64,000 nucleotides of DNA from an uncultured Acidobacteriota bacterium. Its GTDB lineage: Bacteria; Acidobacteriota; Vicinamibacteria; Vicinamibacterales; 2-12-FULL-66-21. The translations under genes were made by a program, and so were the position numbers. The notes under the pieces are model-generated. The model did no database searches, was not told the origin of the DNA, and was given only the letters and a program-made list of their open reading frames with translations. The stretch is taken from the NCBI GenBank assembly GCA_963847975.1, contig CAWKBU010000031.1, positions 280,291 to 344,290 on the forward strand, written 5' to 3'. Positions 4,157 through 25,603 of the stretch are shown here, piece by piece. The stretch's first letter is position 1. Every line of letters starts with the position of its first letter.

Positions 4157-4307
4157 AGCCACGGTAGCAACACGGACAACACGGACGGCAAAGGCGGAGT
4201 GAGAGGCCGAACCCTCCGCTCTGGCGAGCGTTTGCCTGGGAGGACGCCAGCGGAGAATACTCACTACTGAATCACGATGCCATCCGAGCTGCCGCGCGGA
4301 ACGAGGA

Positions 4308-5215
4308 ATGCCTGGGCGGCTGATCGATGTCGGCGGGTTTCGGCTCCATTTGCACTGCTCGGGGTCGGGCCGACCGGCAGTGGTGATGGACTCGGCGCTC
4401 GCCGGCTCATCGATCAGCTGGTCGCTCATCCAGCCGGACGTGTCGCGGCTGACGCGCGCCTGCAGCTACGACCGCGCCGGGTTCGGCTGGAGCGACGCGG
4501 GCCCGATGCCGCGCACGGCCGGACGGGTCGCCGACGAACTGCGTGTGCTCCTCGAGCGTGGCGGCGTCGCCCCGCCGTTCGTGCTCGTCGGGCATTCGTT
4601 CGGCGGCCTGGTCATGCGCATCTTCGCGGCCAGATACCGGAGCGATGTCTCGGGCCTCGTGCTGGTCGATCCCGCGCATCCCGAGGACTGGGTGACGCCG
4701 GCGCCAAAGGAGCAGATCAGGATCGACCGCGGCATCAAGCTGTGCCGCAGCGGCGCGACCGCGGCGCGGTTCGGCGCGGCCCGACTCGTCAGTGGCCTCG
4801 TGACGTTCGGCCTGTTCGGCGTCGCCCGCGGTCTCGCCACCGTCGTCAGTCGCGGCGGACTGTCGCGCGAGGACGAGGGCGTCCTGGCGCCGGTACTGGA
4901 AGCTGCCACCCGAGACGCGCAGGCCGTTGCGGCAGTTCTGGACGCAAGAGAAGTTCTTCGCTGCGCTCGGCAGCCAGATCGCCTCCATCTCGACGAGCGC
5001 AGCCGAGACGCTCGCGGCCGCCGCCGGCGGCTACGGCGACCTGCCGCTCGTCACCATCTCCTCCACCGATCCCGGCGACTACCGGCTGCGCCAGCAGGAG
5101 GCACTCGCCCGCCTGTCGGCGCCGCGGCCGCCACGTCGTCGCCTCGAAGAGCGGGCACTGGATTCCCCTGGACCAGCCGCAGGTCGTCATCGACGCAATC
5201 CGGGAGGTGCTCTGA
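4308..5215 (+). pseudogene. Alpha/beta-fold hydrolase, frame-disrupted
   Basis: The N-terminal ~195 aa of ORF 4308..5228 carry the VGHSFGG nucleophile elbow (~4593). The text continues in the frame of 4927..5253 (WKLPPETRRPLRQFWTQEKFF...) and ends in the frame of 4277..5215 (...SGHWIPLDQPQVVIDAIREVL). Switches lie near 4895 and 5125. Confidence 0.7.
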
Positions 5216-6308: not shown

Positions 6309-6424
6309 CCACTGAGTTCACTCGCCAAGAGCCATTCACCGCCGAGGACGCCGAGGACGCGGAAACCAAAAGGGTTTCCTCTGCGCGCTCCGCGTTCTCG
6401 GCGGTGAGGAGCTCTTGGGCAGTG
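6308..6424. repeat. 117-nt imperfect hairpin filling a convergent gene junction; arms contain tandem words (CCGAGGACG x2)
   Basis: Left arm CCACTG..CCAAGAGC..TCACCGCCGAGGACGCCGAGGACGCGGAAACC, loop AAAA. The right arm's reverse complement reads CCACTGCCCAAGAGCTCCTCACCGCCGAGAACGCGGAGCGCGCAGAGGAAACCC. It starts on the stop codon of 5352..6308 and ends 19 nt before the stop of 6443..8272. Confidence 0.6.
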
Positions 6425-6442: not shown

Positions 6443-8272
6443 CTACGACGCTGCTTTCCGGAGCGTGCGAGTCAACGTCGCAATCGGCTGGCCGTCCAGG
6501 CTGACGACGGCACGAACGAGGTAGTCCCCGGGCGCGAGCTGGCCGATGGGCACGACGCCGGTCGCGCGGCGGCGGGTCGCGTCGCCCGTCGCCGCGATTG
6601 TGCCGGGGACGCGGACGAGGGCGGGCCCGTCTTCGGTCGCGGCCAGCTCCATCGCGACCGACAAGGTCCCGGCTGGAGGGGGATCGAAGATCTCGAAGTT
6701 GCCGTTGGCGGTCGGCTCGGCGGCAAACTGGAGCTTGGGCACGAAGGTGCGTCCGAAGGACACGCCGAGAACCATCGTGCTGAGCGTCGTGCCGTTGACG
6801 GTCACGGCCTCAGCCGCGAGATCGTAGTCAGCCGAGCCGCGACGGCCGGCCGTGTCGATCGCTGCCACTCTCAGCCGGTACCGGCCGGGAGATGCCAGGC
6901 CCGCGGACATCACCGGCAGCGATCCCAGCTCGCGCGCATTGGCGGTCCACTGCGCGACGAGGCGGCCGCGCGCGTCGATGAGGCCAAAGGCCGCGGACTC
7001 GAACGTCACGCCGCGATCGAGCGGTTCCACGAGCGCGACGACGGTGAGCTTGGCGTCGCCGGGATTCGGCGACGAGAGGCCGACCACGCGGAGCGGCAGG
7101 TCGGGATACGCCTTGCCGTCGCGCAGCATGGCCTGCGGCGTCAGCGCCGGCCGTTTGCCATCGGCCTTGGCAATCATCAGGTTGGGTAGCGCCTTCACCT
7201 TCGTGCCGGCCCGCGCGACATCGAACTCGACGCGGTGATACGCGCCATTGCGCTCGTTCGGCCTCGGTTCGAAGCCGATGAGATAGTAGCCGGCGCTCTC
7301 GCGCGCAATGCGGACAAAGGCGCTGCGGTCCGAGGGCGTCAGACGCAGCAGCACGCCGTTGGTCACGCCGGCAAGGCTTTCGATCCCGGCCAGCTCTTCG
7401 TCGGAGCTGCGGAACCGGCTCGCCGTGGGATCGGCGAACGCGTTCTTTGCCGAATCGATCACGAAGTCGTCGGGCTTGACCACATACACGTTCGCGCGCG
7501 CCAGGCTGGCTGCGGTCCCGACCGCGTCGTAGTGCACCGACCGGATTTCGCACGGGCCGGGCGCGCCGGTCATGGGCGCGTCGCGCCGCGGTAACAGCAT
7601 GCCCGACGACACGAAGATGATGGTCTTGGGTCCCTCGATGTGGGCGAGCCCGGTCAGGTGATCGGCGAGCGCCGTGAGGGTGTCACGCGTGCGGCATCCC
7701 TTGGCCGAATCAGTCGTCTGTTGCGACGCCTGGCCGGTAATCGTGGGGAGAACCTTCAGCACGCGCTCGTGGGCGCGCGTCGGCTCGACGAGCACGCCGC
7801 CGTAGGGCATGGTCACGAGGCCGACCCAGTCGCGCGGCGACAACCCGGCGACGAACTCCGCCGCCGCGCTCGTCGCCTGCTGCGCCACGTTGGCGCGGAT
7901 CGAGTCGGTTTCGAGAATGATGACGACCATGCGCCCCGAGTCGTCCAGGGCATTCGTGCCGAATGGCGTGGGCAGCAGCTTCGCGGGCACGCGCGCGGGC
8001 GCCGGAGACGACGCGGACGACGGGCCGAGGCGGACATACTGGAACGAACGGATGTCGCGCGGCCGGCCATCGACCTTGAGCGTGACGTCGGCGGCGCTCA
8101 GATCGGCCACGGGCTGTCCGTCCTGCGCGAGCGCAAGGAAATCGAGCCTGACCAGGTCGACAGCGGCGCGAAACGGCTCGGTCTGCGGGGTCTTGACGGC
8201 GCCGAGCCCGACGGTCGAGACGAGAGCGACCAGGCCCGGAATCAACAAACGACCGGAGAGCCCGGCGAGCAT
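6443..8272 (-). CDS. VWA-domain protein with VWFA-related acidobacterial N-terminal domain (TIGR03436-like)
   Basis: ORF 6443..8539. The likely start is ATG 8272 (MLAGLSGRLLIPGLVALVSTV). The opening FRAAVDLVRLDFLALAQDGQPVADLSAADVTLKVDGRPRDIRSF is characteristic of the family as I recall it. Confidence 0.7.
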   Translation of the reverse strand: MLAGLSGRLLIPGLVALVSTVGLGAVKTPQTEPFRAAVDLVRLDFLALAQDGQPVADLSAADVTLKVDGRPRDIRSFQYVRLGPSSASSPAPARVPAKLLPTPFGTNALDDSGRMVVIILETDSIRANVAQQATSAAAEFVAGLSPRDWVGLVTMPYGGVLVEPTRAHERVLKVLPTITGQASQQTTDSAKGCRTRDTLTALADHLTGLAHIEGPKTIIFVSSGMLLPRRDAPMTGAPGPCEIRSVHYDAVGTAASLARANVYVVKPDDFVIDSAKNAFADPTASRFRSSDEELAGIESLAGVTNGVLLRLTPSDRSAFVRIARESAGYYLIGFEPRPNERNGAYHRVEFDVARAGTKVKALPNLMIAKADGKRPALTPQAMLRDGKAYPDLPLRVVGLSSPNPGDAKLTVVALVEPLDRGVTFESAAFGLIDARGRLVAQWTANARELGSLPVMSAGLASPGRYRLRVAAIDTAGRRGSADYDLAAEAVTVNGTTLSTMVLGVSFGRTFVPKLQFAAEPTANGNFEIFDPPPAGTLSVAMELAATEDGPALVRVPGTIAATGDATRRRATGVVPIGQLAPGDYLVRAVVSLDGQPIATLTRTLRKAAS

Positions 8273-9049: not shown

Positions 9050-9373
9050 GTGCGTGTCAGATTTCAGAAGACCGAGGGCCTGATTTTCCACGACCGGCAG
9101 GGGCCACCGGTGACGATCGACGCTGGAACGCTCGAAGAAGATGACCGCCAGTCGCTCGAACAGATGGTGCACGAGGCGCGCTTCTTCGACTTGCCGGCCC
9201 GGATCCCGAGCTTTCGTGACGCCAGGAACACGACCTGTCAGATCACGATTGAGGATCGGGGACGGCAGCATTCCGTCACCGTTTGCGATCCGGTCCAGGG
9301 GCCGGCGCTGCGTCGGCTGATCGCCAGGCTGCACGAGCTAGGGAAGTGCACCGACAGAAAGTGTGAAGTCTGA
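9050..9373 (+). CDS. Small emfourin-like protein (putative metalloprotease-inhibitor family); hypothetical
   Basis: GTG 9050 lies 6 nt after a GGAGG. The 107-aa product VRVRFQKTEGLIFHDRQGPPVTIDAGTLEEDDRQSLEQMVHEARFFDLPA...CQITIEDRGRQHSVTV..PALRRLIARLHELG matches my memory of the emfourin pattern. The last 5 codons and the stop lie in the GAAGT element. Confidence 0.45.
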   Translation: MRVRFQKTEGLIFHDRQGPPVTIDAGTLEEDDRQSLEQMVHEARFFDLPARIPSFRDARNTTCQITIEDRGRQHSVTVCDPVQGPALRRLIARLHELGKCTDRKCEV

Positions 9374-19515: not shown

Positions 19516-19530
19516 AGCAACCTCTGGTAA

Positions 19531-19623
19531 GTGGGAAGTCTGACGTTTGAAGTCTGACGTATCTAAGTCTGACGTTTGAAGCGGGAAGTGGAAGTTGGAA
19601 GTTGGAAGTTAAGTCTGAAGTTG
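19531..19623. repeat. GAAGT-word element, copy 3: solo arm (no complementary arm) in a divergent promoter region
   Basis: Sequence GTGGGAAGTCTGACGTTTGAAGTCTGACGTATCTAAGTCTGACGTTTGAAGCGGGAAGTGGAAGTTGGAAGTTGGAAGTTAAGTCTGAAGTTGG. It shares a 23-nt identity with copy 1 and the GAAGCGGGAAGT.GGAAGTTG block with copy 2. Confidence 0.75.
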
Positions 19624-22430: not shown

Positions 22431-22438
22431 ACCTGTTT

Positions 22439-22513
22439 CCGGGATCCGGGATCAGGGATCTGAAACCCTGACCCCTGTTCGTGGGTGTTGGCCCTGAGCC
22501 CTGATCCCTGATG
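22439..22513. repeat. Imperfect hairpin built from GGGATC(A/C) heptamers, between two co-oriented genes
   Basis: The left arm CCGGGATCCGGGATCAGGGATC pairs with the right arm GGCCCTGAGCCCTGATCCCTGATG (about 15/18 in the best register). It ends 2 nt before the stop of 22516..23334. Confidence 0.55.
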
Positions 22514-22515
22514 TG

Positions 22516-23334
22516 TCACTTCTCCGGCGCTTGCTTGGCGATCTCGAGCACGTCGGCGGCCGGAAGGATGACGCCGAGCAGCCCCATGCTCTCGCTTCCG
22601 CCCATCATCGACGCCATGCTGGCGCGGCCTGCCTCGATCTGCCGCAGCGTGAGGAGGCCGACCACCCGCCCGTTGGTGAGGAACGCGGGCGTCCCCATGC
22701 CCGACGAGGCGCCCGCGAGCACGTAGAACGTCCGCGGCTTCTCGATGATGGCGCCGACGTCGTAGAGTGCCGCGCCGGCCGTCCACCCACCGACCCGCCC
22801 GAGCCGCGAGAGCACGAGCACTTGATCGAGCAGAGCGGGCTTGGCCGCGTCCGTCAGATCGAGCGCGACGAGCGGCGTCTCCGGCCTCGTCGTGGGACGC
22901 AGAAACGCGAGGTCGAGATCCTCGTCGCGCAACACAATCTTGGCCGGCAGCTCGCGCCCGTTGGACAGACGGATCTTCACTTCCGTCGGCTCGGTCGTGA
23001 TTTCGACTGCGGGCTGACCGTTGCCGCCGCCTCCGCCCGAACCCATGAGCTTGCTCATCATCGCGCCCGGGTTGAGCGAGCCGAGCGACAGCACCGTCAG
23101 GCCCGATGGATCAATAACCGTGCCGACGGTATCGACGGGGTCGTCTGACGCCTGCATTTCCCGCCCGCCCATCGACATGCGCATCTTGAGCACCACGCGC
23201 ACGTTGACGACGGCTTCCTGCCACTTCTTGACGACGTCCCTGGCGGCCGACCGATTGTCCTGGGCGGCAAGGGGCATCGACAGCAGGGCGGGAGCGAGCA
23301 GCAAGGCGGCCAGAGCAGCCAGTGGGGTTCTCAT
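22516..23334 (-). CDS. Secreted trypsin-fold (HtrA-like) protease-domain paralogue, apparently lacking the catalytic His and Ser
   Basis: Start ATG 23334 (MRTPLAALAALLLAPALLSMPLAAQ); the longer ORF to 23409 is GAAGT repeat. It has the HtrA-like layout (DLDLAFLRP Asp block). The His block reads GLTVLSLGSL, and the GNSGGP block reads SSGMGTP. Confidence 0.5.
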   Translation of the reverse strand: MRTPLAALAALLLAPALLSMPLAAQDNRSAARDVVKKWQEAVVNVRVVLKMRMSMGGREMQASDDPVDTVGTVIDPSGLTVLSLGSLNPGAMMSKLMGSGGGGGNGQPAVEITTEPTEVKIRLSNGRELPAKIVLRDEDLDLAFLRPTTRPETPLVALDLTDAAKPALLDQVLVLSRLGRVGGWTAGAALYDVGAIIEKPRTFYVLAGASSGMGTPAFLTNGRVVGLLTLRQIEAGRASMASMMGGSESMGLLGVILPAADVLEIAKQAPEK

Positions 23335-23348
23335 AGTGGGTAGTCTGT

Positions 23349-23568
23349 GAAAGTCTGAAGTCTGACGTGGGAAGTCTGAAGTTATGAAGTCTGAACTGTG
23401 AAGTCTCAAGTGGAAGTCTGAAGTTAAGTCGTTGGAAGTGGAAAGTCTGAAGTCGGACGGCCCGAGGAAAGCGGAAAGCTGGAACGTGCCGAACTTCGCA
23501 CTTCAACTTCCAACTTCCCGCTTCTCACTTCCTCACTTCAGACTTCCCACGTCAGACTTCACACTTTC
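23349..23568. repeat. GAAGT-word palindromic element, copy 2
   Basis: The outer 34 nt of the left arm (GAAAGTCTGAAGTCTGACGTGGGAAGTCTGAAGT) pair with the right arm with 1 mismatch; the interior is ~60% complementary GAAGT words. The reverse complement of the right arm matches the copy-1 arm at 44/47 nt. Confidence 0.8.
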
Positions 23569-23581
23569 ATTGGCCATTGCC

Positions 23582-25603
23582 CTATCGCCATCCCGTCTCC
23601 AGCTCGACAAAGAACGTGCGGATCCCGCGCCGGACCTTGAACACCACGGAACCGGGCTTCGCCTCCGCGACGCGGGCCATCTTGCGCTGGACGGCCTCGA
23701 CGTCGGCGACGCTCTCGCCGTCGATCGTGAGCAGCATGTCTCCGTCGGCGAGGTGGCCGAGCGCCGCCCAGCCGCCTTCCCGGACGGCGTCCACGAGCAC
23801 GCCGGATTGATCCGCGGGCAGGCGTGACGACACGCGGTCGGCGGCGGCGATGTCGCGCACGCGGAACTCGAAGCTCGGGTCCTCGGTATTTTTCATCTCG
23901 CGCGGCAGCCGTGGCGAAGTATCGAGCTTCACGGCGACGTCCACGGGCTTGCCGTTCCTGACGAGCGTCAGCGTCGCGGTCGATCCGATCTTGTACTGGC
24001 GGATGAGCGTGGCGAACAGATCCGCGTCGGAGGTCTGGGAGGCCTCGAGGGCGTTGCCGTCGAGCGCGGTGATGACGTCGCCCACCTTCAGACCCGCCGC
24101 TTCGGCGCCACCGCCGTAGACGCGGGTGATGCGCACGCCAGTCCGGCCAGACAAATTGAGCCGTTCGGCGAGCTCGCGCGTCAGCACCTGCACCGCGATC
24201 GGCACCCAGGCCTTCCTCGCTTCGAGACCCGGATCCTCGAGCCCGGGCCGGCCGAGCTCGATCACGGTCAGCAATCGCTCGCCCGCGCGCTCGAACGCCA
24301 CGAGCGAAGACACCCGCGTGTCCTTCCCGCGCGTCAGCGTCTCGACCGCGCTCTCGAGCGCCTCGAACGACGCCGTCGGGCGGTCGTCGATCGCCACAAT
24401 CACGTCGTCGTCGCGCAGCGCCGGCTTGGCTTCGTCGGCCGGGCCACCCGGCCTGACGCCTCGCACCCGCACCCCGTCGCGGCTTGCGCGCTTGAGCTCC
24501 TTGGCCGCCCATCCCGTCAGGTTGGAAGCCGCGATGCCGGCGAGCGGCAGCTCGCGCGTCCGGGCATCGACGCTCTCGCGCTCCGAGGGCGTCACCCGCA
24601 GTGTCTTCTCGGCGCCGTCGCGGAGCACCGTCGCCTCGACGGGCGTGCCGATCGGCAGGCGCATGACCATCTGGTTGAAGACCGGGACTTCCTCCGCGAA
24701 GCGGACGAGGACGTCGCGGCCGGCGAGCTTCACCAGGATGTCGCCAGAGGCAAAGCCGGCGGCGGCGGCGGGCGACCCGTCGATGGTGCCGCCCACGAGC
24801 GCCCCGCGCGTGGCCTTGCTCGACGCGAGCAGCGGCTGTATCTCGAGGCCGATCCACCCGCGCTTCACGTGACCGTCGCGAATGATCGCGTTGGCGACCT
24901 CGCGCGCGAGATCGGCGGGAATCGCACCCGCCAGGCCGAGGCTGATCTCGTTGATGCCGACGATCTGCCCCTGCAGGTTGATGAGCGGACCGCCGGAGTT
25001 GCCGCCAAAGATGGCGGCATCGTGCCCGATCCAGCGCACGATCGACCCGACGTCCTCGCCGTCGAGCGTCATCCGGTTGAACGGCCAGAACATGCCCGGC
25101 ATGATCATCTCGGTGTTGCTGACGATGCCCATCGTGACCGACTGCGAGAGGGCGAGAGGACTGCCGAGGGCGAGCACGCGGTCGCCGACCTTGAGCGTGG
25201 CGACGTCGCCGAAGGAGGCGACGGGAAATCGGCGCGGCGTCGCCGGCCGCAGCCTGAGGACGGCGATGTCCGAGAGCGGGTCGGTCCCCACGAGCTCGGC
25301 GGGGATCTCTTCGCGGTTGGCGAGGGTGCAGGTGATCGCGCGCGTGCGTCCCGCGACGTGATGGTTGGTAATCACCAACCCTTCCGGCGCGATGATCGTG
25401 CCGCTGCCAGAGGCCTCGCGCTTGAGCTCCCGGCCGTCCTGAAAGTCGACCGCGACGACATGGATGCGAACGAGACTGGGCGCGACCTTGGCCAGGGCGG
25501 CCTGGACTTCAACCGTCTGTTCCGGCGAAGATGGCGCGGGCTGTGCGGATGCCACCCCGGCCAACACGCTCATCGACACGACTACGGCAAACGCTCTGCG
25601 CAT
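23582..25603 (-). CDS. HtrA/DegP-family serine protease with four PDZ-like domains
   Basis: Start ATG 25603 (MRRAFAVVVSMSVLAGVASA). The triad blocks are ITNHHVAG, DPLSDIAVLRL and FGGNSGGPLINLQGQIVGI. Four PDZ-like segments follow (FASGDILVKLAG, DDDVIVAIDD, LKVGDVITALDG, LADGDMLLTIDG). Confidence 0.85.
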   Translation of the reverse strand: MRRAFAVVVSMSVLAGVASAQPAPSSPEQTVEVQAALAKVAPSLVRIHVVAVDFQDGRELKREASGSGTIIAPEGLVITNHHVAGRTRAITCTLANREEIPAELVGTDPLSDIAVLRLRPATPRRFPVASFGDVATLKVGDRVLALGSPLALSQSVTMGIVSNTEMIMPGMFWPFNRMTLDGEDVGSIVRWIGHDAAIFGGNSGGPLINLQGQIVGINEISLGLAGAIPADLAREVANAIIRDGHVKRGWIGLEIQPLLASSKATRGALVGGTIDGSPAAAAGFASGDILVKLAGRDVLVRFAEEVPVFNQMVMRLPIGTPVEATVLRDGAEKTLRVTPSERESVDARTRELPLAGIAASNLTGWAAKELKRASRDGVRVRGVRPGGPADEAKPALRDDDVIVAIDDRPTASFEALESAVETLTRGKDTRVSSLVAFERAGERLLTVIELGRPGLEDPGLEARKAWVPIAVQVLTRELAERLNLSGRTGVRITRVYGGGAEAAGLKVGDVITALDGNALEASQTSDADLFATLIRQYKIGSTATLTLVRNGKPVDVAVKLDTSPRLPREMKNTEDPSFEFRVRDIAAADRVSSRLPADQSGVLVDAVREGGWAALGHLADGDMLLTIDGESVADVEAVQRKMARVAEAKPGSVVFKVRRGIRTFFVELETGWR

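What the first reader, a model, noticed from the sequence alone, without database searches (positions are those of the whole stretch)
23349..23568. GAAGT element copy 2 sits inside an htrA / dead-protease gene pair
This is a second 220-nt palindrome of the same family. The outer 34 nt pair with 1 mismatch, and the reverse complement of its right arm matches the copy-1 arm at 44/47 nt. It occupies the whole gap between the htrA stop (23582) and the start of the downstream co-oriented paralogue (23334). It also creates a spurious 25-codon N-terminal extension (MRLHSSDFITSDFPRQTSDFHRLPT) on the ORF track. In a co-transcribed pair, a ~220-nt hairpin is positioned to act as an attenuator, an RNase processing site, or an mRNA stabiliser that sets the htrA:paralogue ratio.
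Basis: partly seen in the sequence, partly recalled or inferred. Interest (0 to 1): 0.65.

Follow-up and report, generated by a model that had tools for sequence, protein, structure and literature searches.

The report
Dispersed GAAGT hairpin repeat splitting operon
The 220-base palindrome between the htrA-like gene and its paralogue is real. It is one copy of an undescribed, genome-wide hairpin repeat family of soil Vicinamibacterales (Acidobacteriota) that landed in a once-compact operon junction, not a purpose-built regulator of this gene pair.

Summary
Window 23349-23568 is an imperfect palindrome of GAAGTNN heptamers. Its RNA fold is -118 kcal/mol (z = -9.7). It fills the gap between an HtrA-like gene and a trypsin-like paralogue.

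It belongs to a dispersed family:
- 164 arms in 94 loci, almost all from a few Acidobacteriota/Vicinamibacterales MAGs.
- Each arm has a sharp, conserved 34-nt terminus (GAAAGTyTGAAGTCTGACGTkkGAAGTCTGAAGT), then variable heptamer arrays.
- The centres are short and unrelated between copies.
- No target-site duplication is visible.

Full copies sit within about 25 nt of stop codons, or supply the stop themselves. They are depleted from divergent gaps.

Seven relatives of this gene pair have a 6-43-nt junction and no element. Three lineages carry it, and one of those has collapsed it to about 66 nt. So it is a dispensable insertion into an operon spacer.

There is no U-tract, no sigma-70-like promoter, no Rfam match and no sense-strand stability bias. 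The two arms co-evolve.

My reading is a REPIN/BIME-like repeat. Its local effect is inferred: it stops translation in all frames and forms an RNase III-sized intercistronic stem. The enzyme that mobilises it is unknown.

The parts
23349..23568 (.). GAAGT element copy 2, a 220-nt imperfect palindrome. Both strands read 5'-GAAGT arm ... ACTTC arm-3'.
   Evidence: The family profile built from other genomes ends exactly at 23349 and 23568.
23349..23382 (+). Conserved 34-nt outer terminus of the left arm: GAAAGTCTGAAGTCTGACGTGGGAAGTCTGAAGT.
   Evidence: Terminus logo from 134 arms. The boundary is sharp at the first G, and the flank outside is random apart from W at -1.
23349..23452 (+). Left arm, 104 nt of GAAGTNN heptamers on the + strand (period 7).
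   Evidence: TRF reports periods 7, 14, 29 and 42 over 23351-23457. Arm and centre were partitioned.
23453..23493 (.). Non-conserved centre (loop region), 41 nt. Most strain-level differences lie here.
   Evidence: centres are 2-44 nt in 27 of 28 full copies and unrelated between copies. Alignment A1.
23494..23568 (+). Right arm, 75 nt of ACTTC-sense heptamers. Its last 34 nt (23535-23568) are the inverted terminus.
23569..23581 (-). 13-nt remnant of the original spacer, between the htrA stop (TAG, 23584-23582 on the minus strand) and the element.
   Evidence: The two remnants (13 + 14 nt) add up to the 17-32-nt spacer seen in most element-free relatives.
23335..23348 (-). 14-nt remnant spacer between the element and the paralogue ATG (23334). 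It has no obvious Shine-Dalgarno sequence.
   Evidence: The ...ctac(c/a)cactATG motif is shared with element-free L131.
23582..25603 (-). HtrA-like S1C serine protease gene (Trypsin_2 plus 3-4 PDZ domains). The start codon is not certain; the ORF is open up to 25660.
22516..23334 (-). 272-aa trypsin-like paralogue with a signal-peptide-like N-terminus. It probably lacks the catalytic His.
   Evidence: 940 homologues at E <= 1e-10, one named as Vicinamibacterales.
9357..9605 (.). GAAGT element copy 1, a full palindrome of 249 nt whose arms are 96% complementary over 78 nt. It supplies the last 12 codons (ESLKSDVRSLK*) of the gene at 9570..12041(-).
19527..19620 (+). Single-arm copy in a divergent gap between a Band_7 gene and a DZR zinc-ribbon gene. 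It is conserved at the orthologous site in other species.
   Evidence: (L003, L013).

Best explanation
Copy 2 is one member of a dispersed, non-coding, hairpin-forming inverted-repeat family, here called the GAAGT element. The family is confined mainly to one lineage of uncultured Vicinamibacterales-type Acidobacteriota.

Anatomy (shown). Each arm starts with a conserved 34-nt terminus and continues as a variable-length array of GAAGTNN heptamers. Two arms face each other across a short arbitrary centre. The family behaves like REPIN/BIME-type elements. It is multi-copy, and its ends are sharp with no target-site duplication. It lies just downstream of stop codons and persists at orthologous sites. 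Heptamer slippage and internal deletion change its length.

History at this locus (shown). The element was inserted into the 17-40-nt spacer of an ancestrally compact htrA->paralogue operon. Insertion most likely happened once, in the ancestor of three lineages. Relatives without it keep both genes, so it is dispensable.

Local effect (inferred, not shown). Whichever strand is transcribed, the RNA first meets the GAAGT arm, which has TGA in all three frames within 21 nt, so any read-in translation ends. It then meets the ACUUC arm, which pairs back to give a helix of about 90-100 bp with 27 contiguous pairs. That helix has no U-tract, so it should not terminate by the intrinsic route. Being fully paired, it should hide the C-rich arm from Rho. 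It is long enough to be cut by RNase III, or to block 3'-exonucleases. The most likely consequence is that htrA and the paralogue are uncoupled in translation and mRNA decay. This would be a by-product of a generic element, not a tuned device.

Spread (inferred). The likely route is a single-strand or hairpin-recognising enzyme that makes no duplication, such as a Y1/HUH transposase. No cognate enzyme was found.
For: Family membership:
These were dominated by three long-read Acidobacteriota MAGs, plus further Acidobacteriota and Vicinamibacterales MAGs.
- 164 terminus-bearing arms lie in 94 loci. One MAG alone has at least 53 arms.
- The terminus logo shows a sharp boundary.
- Arms at unrelated loci score about 45-50 out of a maximum of 65 over positions 35-100.
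- Centres are unrelated between copies.
- No duplication is visible at 28 full copies.

Genomic context:
- Full copies are flanked 3'/3' in 9 cases, 3'/5' in 15 and 5'/5' in 1. The background rate of divergent gaps is 19% (binomial p = 0.035).
- Stop codons lie mostly within -36..+24 nt of an element end. Recurrent offsets of -10, -24 and -36 are explained by TGAs inside the terminus.

Insertion history:
- Element-free junctions are 6, 17, 18, 26, 27, 32 and 43 nt in L105, L131, L132, L106, L104, L133 and L103.
- The element is present at the same junction in L001 and L002 (98% identical), in L057 (211 nt), and collapsed in L070 (about 66 nt).
- A neighbour-joining tree puts the element-bearing lineages in one clade.

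Structure:
- MFE -118 kcal/mol, z = -9.7.
- 68 consensus pairs, 4 of them with compensatory double changes.
- Left and right arms agree at the fast-evolving spacers in 24-26 of 28 elements, against about 13 expected. Orthologous copies differ at those same spacers in 39-50% of pairs.

Precedent: the REP literature reports the same context bias and the same supply of stop codons (PMC3733652).
Against: - No transcript data exist, so every RNA-level effect is inference.
- Sense and antisense folds are equally stable (31 elements, mean difference -1.2 kcal/mol, Wilcoxon p = 0.62). There is therefore no G-U signature of selection on one transcript.
- No cognate transposase was found. The only Y1_Tnp gene in the fetched loci is flanked by a different repeat (GGTGTCAGGCAGTGAATCGTGAA), as are its 17 metagenome orthologues.
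- The defining REP tags (GTAG or CGTC) are absent, and the arms are several times longer than REPs.
- The GAAGT core is conserved 3-10 times better than the spacers. Pairing alone does not explain that.
- Gene context rests on crude GC3-based ORF calls.
- Bootstrap support for a single gain is only 57%.
Confidence: 0.6

Rival explanations
1. A dedicated cis-regulator of this operon. On this view the hairpin evolved, or was co-opted and tuned, as an attenuator, terminator or processing site that sets the htrA:paralogue ratio.
For: It fills the whole intercistronic gap of a pair that is tightly linked in relatives. It has been retained in three lineages at 12-17% nucleotide divergence. The stem is very stable and has 27 contiguous pairs.
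Against: The same element occurs next to dozens of unrelated genes. It is absent in seven relatives, including L131, which is as close as L057. It has collapsed to about 66 nt in L070. It has no U-tract and no promoter-like site. The family shows no sense-strand bias. Between strains, most changes lie in the centre, and the few stem changes are not compensatory.
Confidence: 0.1
2. A transparent passenger. The element is selfish or decaying DNA tolerated in a permissive spacer, and it has no measurable effect on transcription, processing or translation of the flanking genes.
For: It is dispensable in relatives. There is no strand-specific stability signal. Lengths vary and copies collapse. Positions next to stop codons could simply be where insertions are tolerated.
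Against: A helix of about 100 bp in an mRNA is unlikely to be inert to RNase III and ribosomes (general knowledge; untested here). The two arms are kept complementary while the spacers turn over. Copies persist at orthologous sites across species despite the usual bacterial bias towards deletion.
Confidence: 0.2
3. A DNA-level protein-binding array. On this view the GAAGTNN heptads are iterated binding sites for a sequence-specific protein, and the hairpin potential is secondary. A known example of heptad binding, from my own knowledge, is the ribbon-helix-helix omega protein of pSM19035.
For: The periodicity is strictly 7 nt, with a conserved 5-nt core and free 2-nt spacers. Cores change 3-10 times more slowly than spacers between orthologues. 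Similar GAAGTCT/GACGTCT heptamer arrays occur in other phyla.
Against: There is no candidate protein. Arm lengths are very variable. The arms are inverted and co-vary, which points to pairing. Core conservation could equally come from continuing heptamer slippage, for example perfect (GAAGTGG)9 runs.
Confidence: 0.08
4. An assembly artefact, such as fold-back chimeras or repeat mis-assembly in long-read metagenome assemblies.
For: Most copies come from long-read MAGs that also show frameshift-like errors in genes.
Against: The same element lies at the same junction in three independent assemblies at 98% identity. Related copies occur in MAGs whose contig names look like short-read assemblies (L021, L047, L088). 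Orthologous copies have diverged in the normal way.
Confidence: 0.01

Closest known systems
REPINs / REP doublets mobilised by RAYT (Y1/HUH) transposases (PMC3116915, PMC3337134; persistence: bioRxiv 10.1101/2021.07.10.451892)
   Same: Both are two inverted repeat units around a short spacer that fold into one long hairpin. Both are multi-copy and extragenic, occur also as singlets, and are retained vertically at orthologous sites. Neither shows a target-site duplication.
   Different: The arms here are 75-230 nt of heptamer arrays rather than REPs of about 20-40 nt. There is no GTAG or CGTC tag. No RAYT flanked by GAAGT arms was found. The Y1_Tnp gene found in one of these genomes carries a different repeat.
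REP/BIME elements, GTAG- and CGTC-tagged superfamilies (PMC3733652)
   Same: Both prefer unidirectional and convergent gaps downstream of ORFs. In both, the element termini sometimes supply the host gene's stop codon. Both co-occur with other repeat types as mosaics (L010, L029).
   Different: Size, terminus sequence and internal heptamer periodicity all differ. Canonical GTAG REPs exist separately in the same genomes, and one occupies a site (L041, L053) where another species has a GAAGT element (L024).
Correia/NEMIS elements of Neisseria and ERIC/IRU elements of enterobacteria (from my own knowledge, not checked here)
   Same: These are repeats of about 100-150 nt with inverted ends. They are inserted next to or between genes, are co-transcribed, fold into long hairpins and (for Correia elements) are cleaved by RNase III with effects on mRNA stability. 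This is the working model I infer for copy 2.
   Different: Correia elements make a TA duplication and share a common internal sequence. GAAGT elements show no duplication and have arbitrary centres.
Heptanucleotide tandem-repeat arrays: TAACTGA repeats of Beggiatoaceae, Cyanobacteria and Bacteroidetes (PMC4679880), and cyanobacterial STRR (my own knowledge)
   Same: All have 7-nt units, lie in intergenic regions and vary in copy number. They often abut start or stop codons, and the units contain stop codons.
   Different: Those are simple direct arrays without conserved unique termini or an obligatory inverted partner. GAAGT arrays are framed by a 34-nt terminus and are usually paired into a palindrome.
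23S rRNA intervening sequences carrying a PF05635 (S23p, four-helix-bundle) ORF (PMC4990558 for Coxiella)
   Same: At one locus (L037, L072, L107) a PF05635 gene sits between two GAAGT arms. That is a long stem enclosing this ORF, as in an IVS.
   Different: It is not in an rRNA gene. It is a single locus among about 90 elements. More distant PF05635 genes that I checked have no flanking inverted repeats.

Membership tests
REP / BIME (GTAG- or CGTC-tagged) | Short (about 20-40 nt) imperfect palindromic unit | tested here: not met
   Arms are 75-230 nt and whole elements are 186-498 nt.
REP / BIME (GTAG- or CGTC-tagged) | Unpaired GTAG or CGTC tetranucleotide at one end | tested here: not met
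   The terminus is W|GAAAGTyTGAAGTC... in 134 arms. The only CGTC lies inside the paired stem.
REP / BIME (GTAG- or CGTC-tagged) | Multi-copy and extragenic, mostly between unidirectional or convergent ORFs and downstream of coding regions | tested here: met
   164 arms in 94 loci. Context counts are 9 convergent, 15 unidirectional and 1 divergent, against a 19% background for divergent gaps. Gene calls are crude.
REPIN-RAYT system | Two inverted repeat units separated by a short spacer, forming one hairpin; singlets also occur | tested here: met
   28 exact and 18 degenerate full copies, plus single arms.
REPIN-RAYT system | A cognate Y1 (RAYT) transposase gene flanked by the same repeat | tested here: inconclusive
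   About 0.8 Mb of loci were scanned with a RAYT motif. One Y1_Tnp gene was found (PF01797, E 7e-13), flanked by a different repeat, and none of 20 metagenome relatives has GAAGT arms. Whole genomes could not be scanned.
REPIN-RAYT system | Long-term vertical persistence at orthologous positions | tested here: met
   In most orthologous locus pairs at 80-90% flank identity, the insert at the same site is of comparable length in both. Presence of the element itself was confirmed by inspection at the htrA junction.
MITE derived from a DDE-type insertion sequence | Terminal inverted repeats and small size with no coding capacity | tested here: met
   Conserved 34-nt inverted termini. No credible ORF; the ORFs reported inside arms are stop-free ACTTC-strand artefacts.
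MITE derived from a DDE-type insertion sequence | Target-site duplication flanking each copy | tested here: not met
   No duplication at 28 full copies. None is apparent when the filled junction is compared with element-free relatives, though the flanks have diverged.
MITE derived from a DDE-type insertion sequence | A full-length IS with the same termini in the same genomes | tested here: inconclusive
   The only gene enclosed by GAAGT termini in the fetched loci is a PF05635 gene. Whole genomes were not searchable.
Intrinsic (Rho-independent) terminator | A stem-loop immediately followed by a U-tract | tested here: not met
   No terminator-like site in 23100-23800. Across the family, the flank outside the terminus is compositionally random.
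Simple heptanucleotide tandem-repeat arrays (STRR / TAACTGA type) | Head-to-tail 7-nt units of variable number | tested here: met
   TRF reports period 7 and its multiples in all three window copies. Perfect runs such as (GAAGTGG)9 occur in relatives.
Simple heptanucleotide tandem-repeat arrays (STRR / TAACTGA type) | The array is the whole feature, with no conserved unique ends and no obligatory inverted partner | tested here: not met
   There is a conserved 34-nt terminus and an arm consensus of 64 nt or more. Arms are paired and co-vary.
23S rRNA intervening sequence | Insertion in a 23S rRNA helix, excised by RNase III | tested here: not met
   Copy 2 lies between protein-coding genes. Rfam finds no rRNA or any other family in the window.
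Any curated RNA family (Rfam 15) | A covariance-model match at the gathering score | tested here: not met
   No matches in the window. In permissive mode there is only mir-6301 at E 0.3, 18 bits against a gathering score of 70.

The most novel reading that the evidence does not exclude
GAAGT elements could be a distinct class of bacterial repeat rather than an oversized REPIN. In this reading the arms are arrays of a sequence-specific heptad that an unidentified protein or templating process recognises or generates. The two arms are kept complementary by concerted evolution. Genome-wide, the elements would act as 'operon punctuation': stop codons in every frame followed by an RNase III-sized stem, which also supplies C-terminal tails (ESLKSDV*) to host proteins. 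The conserved copy that encloses a PF05635 gene would then hint at how ORF-bearing 23S rRNA intervening sequences arise.
Probability: 0.12. Interest if true: 0.7.

Novelty: new variant of a known kind. Interest (0 to 1): 0.4.

Why it matters
For this locus, the ORF-track extension is an artefact, and the 247-nt 'gap' is an insertion into an operon, not an ancestral regulatory region. Any effect on htrA and the paralogue is probably generic.

More broadly, Vicinamibacterales are abundant, almost uncultured soil bacteria. Their repeat content became visible only with long-read MAGs. A family with at least dozens of copies per genome has several practical consequences:
- It breaks short-read assemblies.
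- It creates false ORFs and N-terminal extensions.
- It rewrites the C-termini of some genes.
- It splits operons, so it matters for annotation.

It also offers a natural test system, because filled, collapsed and empty alleles of the same junction exist. That system could show what long intercistronic hairpins do to bacterial mRNAs, and how palindrome arms are kept in step.

Tried and rejected
- G-U / sense-strand test. If the hairpin were selected as RNA, the sense strand should fold better. In 31 elements with known flanking-gene orientation the mean difference was -1.2 kcal/mol, p = 0.62, so the test is uninformative.
- Global comparison of arm complementarity with ortholog identity. Low complexity made orientation ambiguous. 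I replaced it with register-anchored position tests.
- Target-site duplication or target motif. None was found beyond W at -1, and flank pairs often just extend the palindrome by 1 bp.
- Shared internal sequence. The centres show no similarity to each other, so this is not a classical copy-whole-unit MITE.
- Cognate transposase. A motif scan of all loci found one Y1_Tnp gene with a different repeat, and the metagenome scan of its relatives gave 20 loci, none with GAAGT arms.
- PF05635 link. It is conserved at one locus only. Two more distant PF05635 genes have no flanking inverted repeats. One look-up (P0127) returned nothing.
- Promoter and terminator consensus scan: 0 and 0.
- Rfam: nothing.
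- Viral contigs: 0 motif hits.
- Literature: no paper contains the motif, and none describes such repeats in Vicinamibacteria.
- Intactness of the paralogue in L057 and L070. Both show frameshifts that may be long-read errors, so I drew no conclusion.
- CsrA-sponge or Shine-Dalgarno-mimic ideas for the GGA-rich arm. I considered these only from memory. In full copies those motifs are paired, and I did not pursue them.

Full report
OBSERVATION

On the + strand the left part is a run of GAAGTNN heptamers and the right part is its mirror, ACTTC. The repeat finder gives arms 23348-23425 and 23492-23569, 78 nt and 82% complementary. The outer 34 nt pair with one mismatch. The right arm matches the left arm of copy 1 (9357-9605) except at the two-base spacer of ACGTNNGAAGT and one further base.

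The minus-strand RNA folds at -118.4 kcal/mol, against -70.6 +/- 4.9 for shuffles (z = -9.7). GAAGTCTGAAGT with up to 1 mismatch occurs 22 times in the window against 0.12 expected. The hits lie in three places only: 9357-9605, 19527-19620 and 23349-23568.

The element leaves 13 nt to the stop codon of a Trypsin_2 + PDZ (HtrA-like) gene. It leaves 14 nt to the ATG of a 272-aa trypsin-like paralogue. The 25-codon 'extension' exists on the ORF track. It is an artefact: the ACTTC-sense arm has no stop codon in any frame. The GAAGT-sense arm, by contrast, has TGA in all three frames within 21 nt.

WHAT IT IS: A DISPERSED FAMILY

I scanned species-representative genomes for the terminal motif GAAGTCTGACGTNNGAAGTCTGA. 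These were dominated by three long-read 'uncultured Acidobacteriota' MAGs, with further Acidobacteriota and Vicinamibacterales MAGs. Homologues of the paralogue include one named Vicinamibacterales.

Oriented print-outs and a logo of 134 arms show a sharp outer boundary and a conserved terminus, GAAAGTyTGAAGTCTGACGTkkGAAGTCTGAAGT. Inside this come GAAGTNN units with a conserved core and free spacers.

I built a profile from 110 arms of other genomes. It hits the window at exactly five arms with E from 1e-11 to 1e-17, and the hits end precisely at 23349 and 23568. Across all sequence held, it finds 164 terminus-bearing arms in 94 loci. The lower bounds are 53, 45 and 35 arms in the three main MAGs.

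- Full palindromes are 186-498 nt.
- Arms are 75-234 nt and often unequal in length.
- Centres are 2-44 nt (one is 188 nt) and unrelated between copies.
- Arms at unrelated loci are still similar well beyond the terminus, so this is a true repeat family and not convergent simple sequence.
- No target-site duplication is visible at 28 full copies.

GENOMIC CONTEXT

I used crude GC3-based ORF calls. Full copies have gene 3' ends on both sides in 9 cases, a 3' end and a 5' end in 15, and two 5' ends in 1. The background rate of divergent gaps in the same loci is 19% (binomial p = 0.035).

The neighbouring stop codon is usually within -36..+24 nt of the element end. Recurrent negative offsets (-10, -24, -36) are ORFs that read into the terminus and stop at one of its TGAs. 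The element therefore supplies tails such as ESLKSDV* (L037, L054, L072) and ESLKSDVRSLK* (the window gene 9570..12041, at copy 1).

Published work reports the same context bias and stop-codon supply for REP elements (PMC3733652). The terminus carries neither the GTAG nor the CGTC tag. Canonical GTAG REPs exist separately in these genomes.

HISTORY OF THIS JUNCTION

Two strain-level contigs (L001 at 98% identity, L002 at 96%) carry the element at the same place. Most of their differences lie in the centre.

Two other MAG species are orthologous across htrA and the paralogue. L057 has a full 211-nt copy. L070 has a collapsed copy of about 66 nt that keeps a 13-14-bp terminal stem (-21 kcal/mol).

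Seven other relatives (74-89% protein identity for the paralogue) have no element. Their stop-to-ATG spacers are 6, 17, 18, 26, 27, 32 and 43 nt. The profile finds no arm in any of those seven loci.

The two remnant flanks in the window (13 + 14 nt) add up to such a spacer. The 3' flank still resembles the spacer of element-free L131 (...ctac(c/a)cactATG).

A neighbour-joining tree on 1,819 nt groups the element-bearing lineages, with L131 as sister. Bootstrap support for that clade is only 57%. A single gain is favoured, but a clean loss in L131 is not excluded.

Either way, the ancestral state is a compact and probably translationally coupled operon. The element is a dispensable insertion into it.

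STRUCTURE AND EVOLUTION OF THE ARMS

RNAalifold on the window, L001, L002 and L057 gives 68 consensus pairs. These include 27 contiguous pairs in the outer stem. Four pairs show compensatory double changes and five are broken.

Across the family, the left and right arms of one element agree at the variable ACGTNN spacer in 26/28 and 24/28 cases. About 13 are expected, and 0 of 500 shuffles reach the observed value. Orthologous copies in different species differ at those same register-anchored positions in 39-50% of pairs. Core positions differ in only 4-14%.

So the spacers turn over quickly, but the two arms of an element stay matched. That means concerted evolution, either by selection for pairing or by arm-to-arm correction. 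I cannot tell which.

The GAAGT core is conserved beyond what pairing requires. Continuing heptamer slippage (perfect runs such as (GAAGTGG)9) or sequence-specific recognition could each explain this.

Lengths differ between orthologues at almost every site. Some copies have collapsed by internal deletion (L070; L062 at the site of copy 1).

WHAT IT PROBABLY DOES HERE (INFERRED)

No sigma-70-like promoter and no stem-plus-U-tract terminator is found in 23100-23800. The flank outside the family terminus is compositionally random. A classical attenuator or intrinsic terminator is therefore unlikely.

The rest rests on general knowledge of bacterial mRNA metabolism, not on data from this organism. 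A transcript that crosses the element would have any read-in translation stopped within seven codons. It would then form a fully paired helix of about 100 bp. Such a helix is a textbook RNase III substrate and a barrier to 3'-exonucleases, and it sequesters the C-rich arm that could otherwise load Rho. The expected result is that the two cistrons lose translational coupling and acquire separate decay.

A test for selection on one transcript was negative: sense and antisense fold stabilities do not differ (31 elements, p = 0.62). There is thus no positive evidence that the RNA is the selected form.

HOW IT SPREADS (UNRESOLVED)

Sharp ends without duplications fit enzymes of the Y1/HUH type, as for REPINs. 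Published work also reports TIR-flanked tyrosine transposases in Acidobacteria (PMC3733652).

A motif scan of all fetched loci found one Y1_Tnp gene (PF01797, E 7e-13). It is flanked by its own inverted repeat, GGTGTCAGGCAGTGAATCGTGAA. The same repeat flanks 17 of its 20 metagenome relatives, and none of the 20 carries GAAGT arms. This shows that repeat-transposase pairs of this kind exist in these genomes. It does not show which enzyme, if any, moves GAAGT elements.

The only gene bracketed by GAAGT termini is a PF05635 (23S rRNA intervening-sequence protein) gene at the lapB-coaE locus. The arrangement is conserved in three species (L037, L072, L107). Two more distant PF05635 genes have no flanking inverted repeats.

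COMPARISON WITH KNOWN SYSTEMS, AND NOVELTY

In behaviour the family is closest to REPINs, BIMEs and hairpin MITEs such as Correia elements.

- It fails the defining REP features of size and GTAG/CGTC tag.
- It fails the MITE feature of a target-site duplication.
- The REPIN feature of a cognate RAYT could not be established.
- Its heptamer construction recalls STRR and TAACTGA arrays (PMC4679880), but those lack conserved termini and inverted partners.
- Rfam has no matching family.
- The motif is absent from the viral contig collection.
- No paper in the searched library contains the motif or describes such repeats in Vicinamibacteria.

I classify it as a new variant of a known kind.

VERDICT

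The element is an intercistronic hairpin in what was a tight operon. It is also a generic, dispensable repeat, not a device evolved to set the htrA:paralogue ratio. Its effect on RNA remains to be measured.

Noticed in passing
window 22437-22512: A second kind of heptamer palindrome (TCCGGGA/TCAGGGA ... CCCTGAG/CCCTGAT; -35 kcal/mol). It fills the gap between the paralogue stop and the next minus-strand gene. It is present in the window and in L002 but cleanly absent from the 98%-identical L001, where only TCAGG|CCCGA remains. This is a strain-level insertion/deletion polymorphism.
   Followed up: partly
window 18367-18465: A palindrome of (GGGCTCA)n / (TGAGCCY)n heptamers between two co-oriented minus-strand genes (-64.8 kcal/mol, z = -6.6). 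The unit is the same as in the 22437-22512 palindrome. The blastn alignment with L001 breaks here: 122 nt in the window against 175 nt in L001.
   Followed up: partly
window 6319-6424: A hairpin with 45-nt arms that contains GCCGAGGAC 9-mers, lying between convergent genes (-78.6 kcal/mol, z = -10.1). It contains CATTCACCGCC, which is also part of the repeat flanking the Y1 transposase in L040.
   Followed up: no
window 19527-19620; L003 5844-5971; L013 2006-2105: A single-arm GAAGT copy lies in a divergent gap, 12 nt from the start codon of a Band_7 gene and facing a DZR zinc-ribbon gene. It is conserved at the orthologous site in L003 and L013, which belong to two other MAG species. Single arms lie in divergent gaps more often (7 cases) than full palindromes do (1 case).
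   Followed up: partly
window 9570-9605; L037 about 4659-4682; L072 about 779-802; L054 about 1483-1506: The element terminus supplies the C-terminus and stop codon of host genes. The tails are ...ESLKSDV* or ...ESLKSDVRSLK*, read from GAA AGT YTG AAG TCT GAC GTT TGA.
   Followed up: yes
L037 4659-5536; L072 25-802; L107 1201-2062: A 137-aa PF05635 (23S rRNA intervening-sequence / four-helix-bundle) gene sits between two GAAGT arms, just downstream of a lapB-like gene. The arrangement is conserved in three species. It resembles an ORF-bearing rRNA intervening sequence but lies outside rRNA. Contigs carrying close homologues are mostly about 1 kb, as expected if assemblies break at the arms.
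   Followed up: partly
L040 3795-5052 (gene 4233-4847, minus strand); L111-L127: An IS200-like Y1 transposase gene (PF01797) is flanked by inverted copies of GGTGTCAGGCAGTGAATCGTGAA, which contains GTGAATN heptamers. Seventeen metagenome orthologues show the same arrangement, and extra copies of the repeat occur in L041. This is a REPtron/TIRtron-like unit in the same MAG as GAAGT elements.
   Followed up: partly
L041 2330-2410; L053 3210-3295; L024 7229-7552: At one orthologous convergent gap, one species has a 324-nt GAAGT element (L024). Two others (L041, L053) have a pair of GTAG-tagged REP-like hairpins (GTAGTGTCCGGCTTCAGCCGGAC...). Different repeat families occupy the same site.
   Followed up: no
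L029 819-1213; L010 4849-5100: These are mosaics in which a GAAGT arm is followed by copies of a GTAG REP (GTAGCTTCCGCCTTCAGGCGGAAG). In L029 the REPs form a tandem array interleaved with GAAGT heptamers. The arrangement is BIME-like.
   Followed up: no
L033 about 7470-7640; L090 about 2520-2840; also L048, L051, L056, L063, L083: Arrays of GAAGTCT/GACGTCT/GACATCT/GGCGTCT heptamers, some of them palindromic, occur in unrelated lineages: Pyrinomonadaceae, Acidimicrobiia, Planctomycetota, Verrucomicrobia and Gammaproteobacteria. They lack the GAAAGT terminus. Either there is a wider TCTGA-type heptamer phenomenon or this is convergence.
   Followed up: no
L094 versus L087: L094 is labelled as an uncultured Gammaproteobacteria MAG, yet it is 79-86% identical over about 5 kb to L087 from an Acidobacteriota MAG, and it carries a GAAGT element. 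It may be a mis-binned or mislabelled contig.
   Followed up: no
L057 about 980-1800; L070 about 4200-5050; L002 gene calls: The paralogue and several neighbouring genes show frameshifts or fragmented gene calls in the long-read MAG contigs. These could be homopolymer errors or real pseudogenes, and I could not tell which.
   Followed up: partly
L108 1501-2870: A PF05635 gene lies next to, and convergent with, an RNase III gene (Ribonuclease_3 + dsrm) in a contig from the same study. This is probably coincidence.
   Followed up: no
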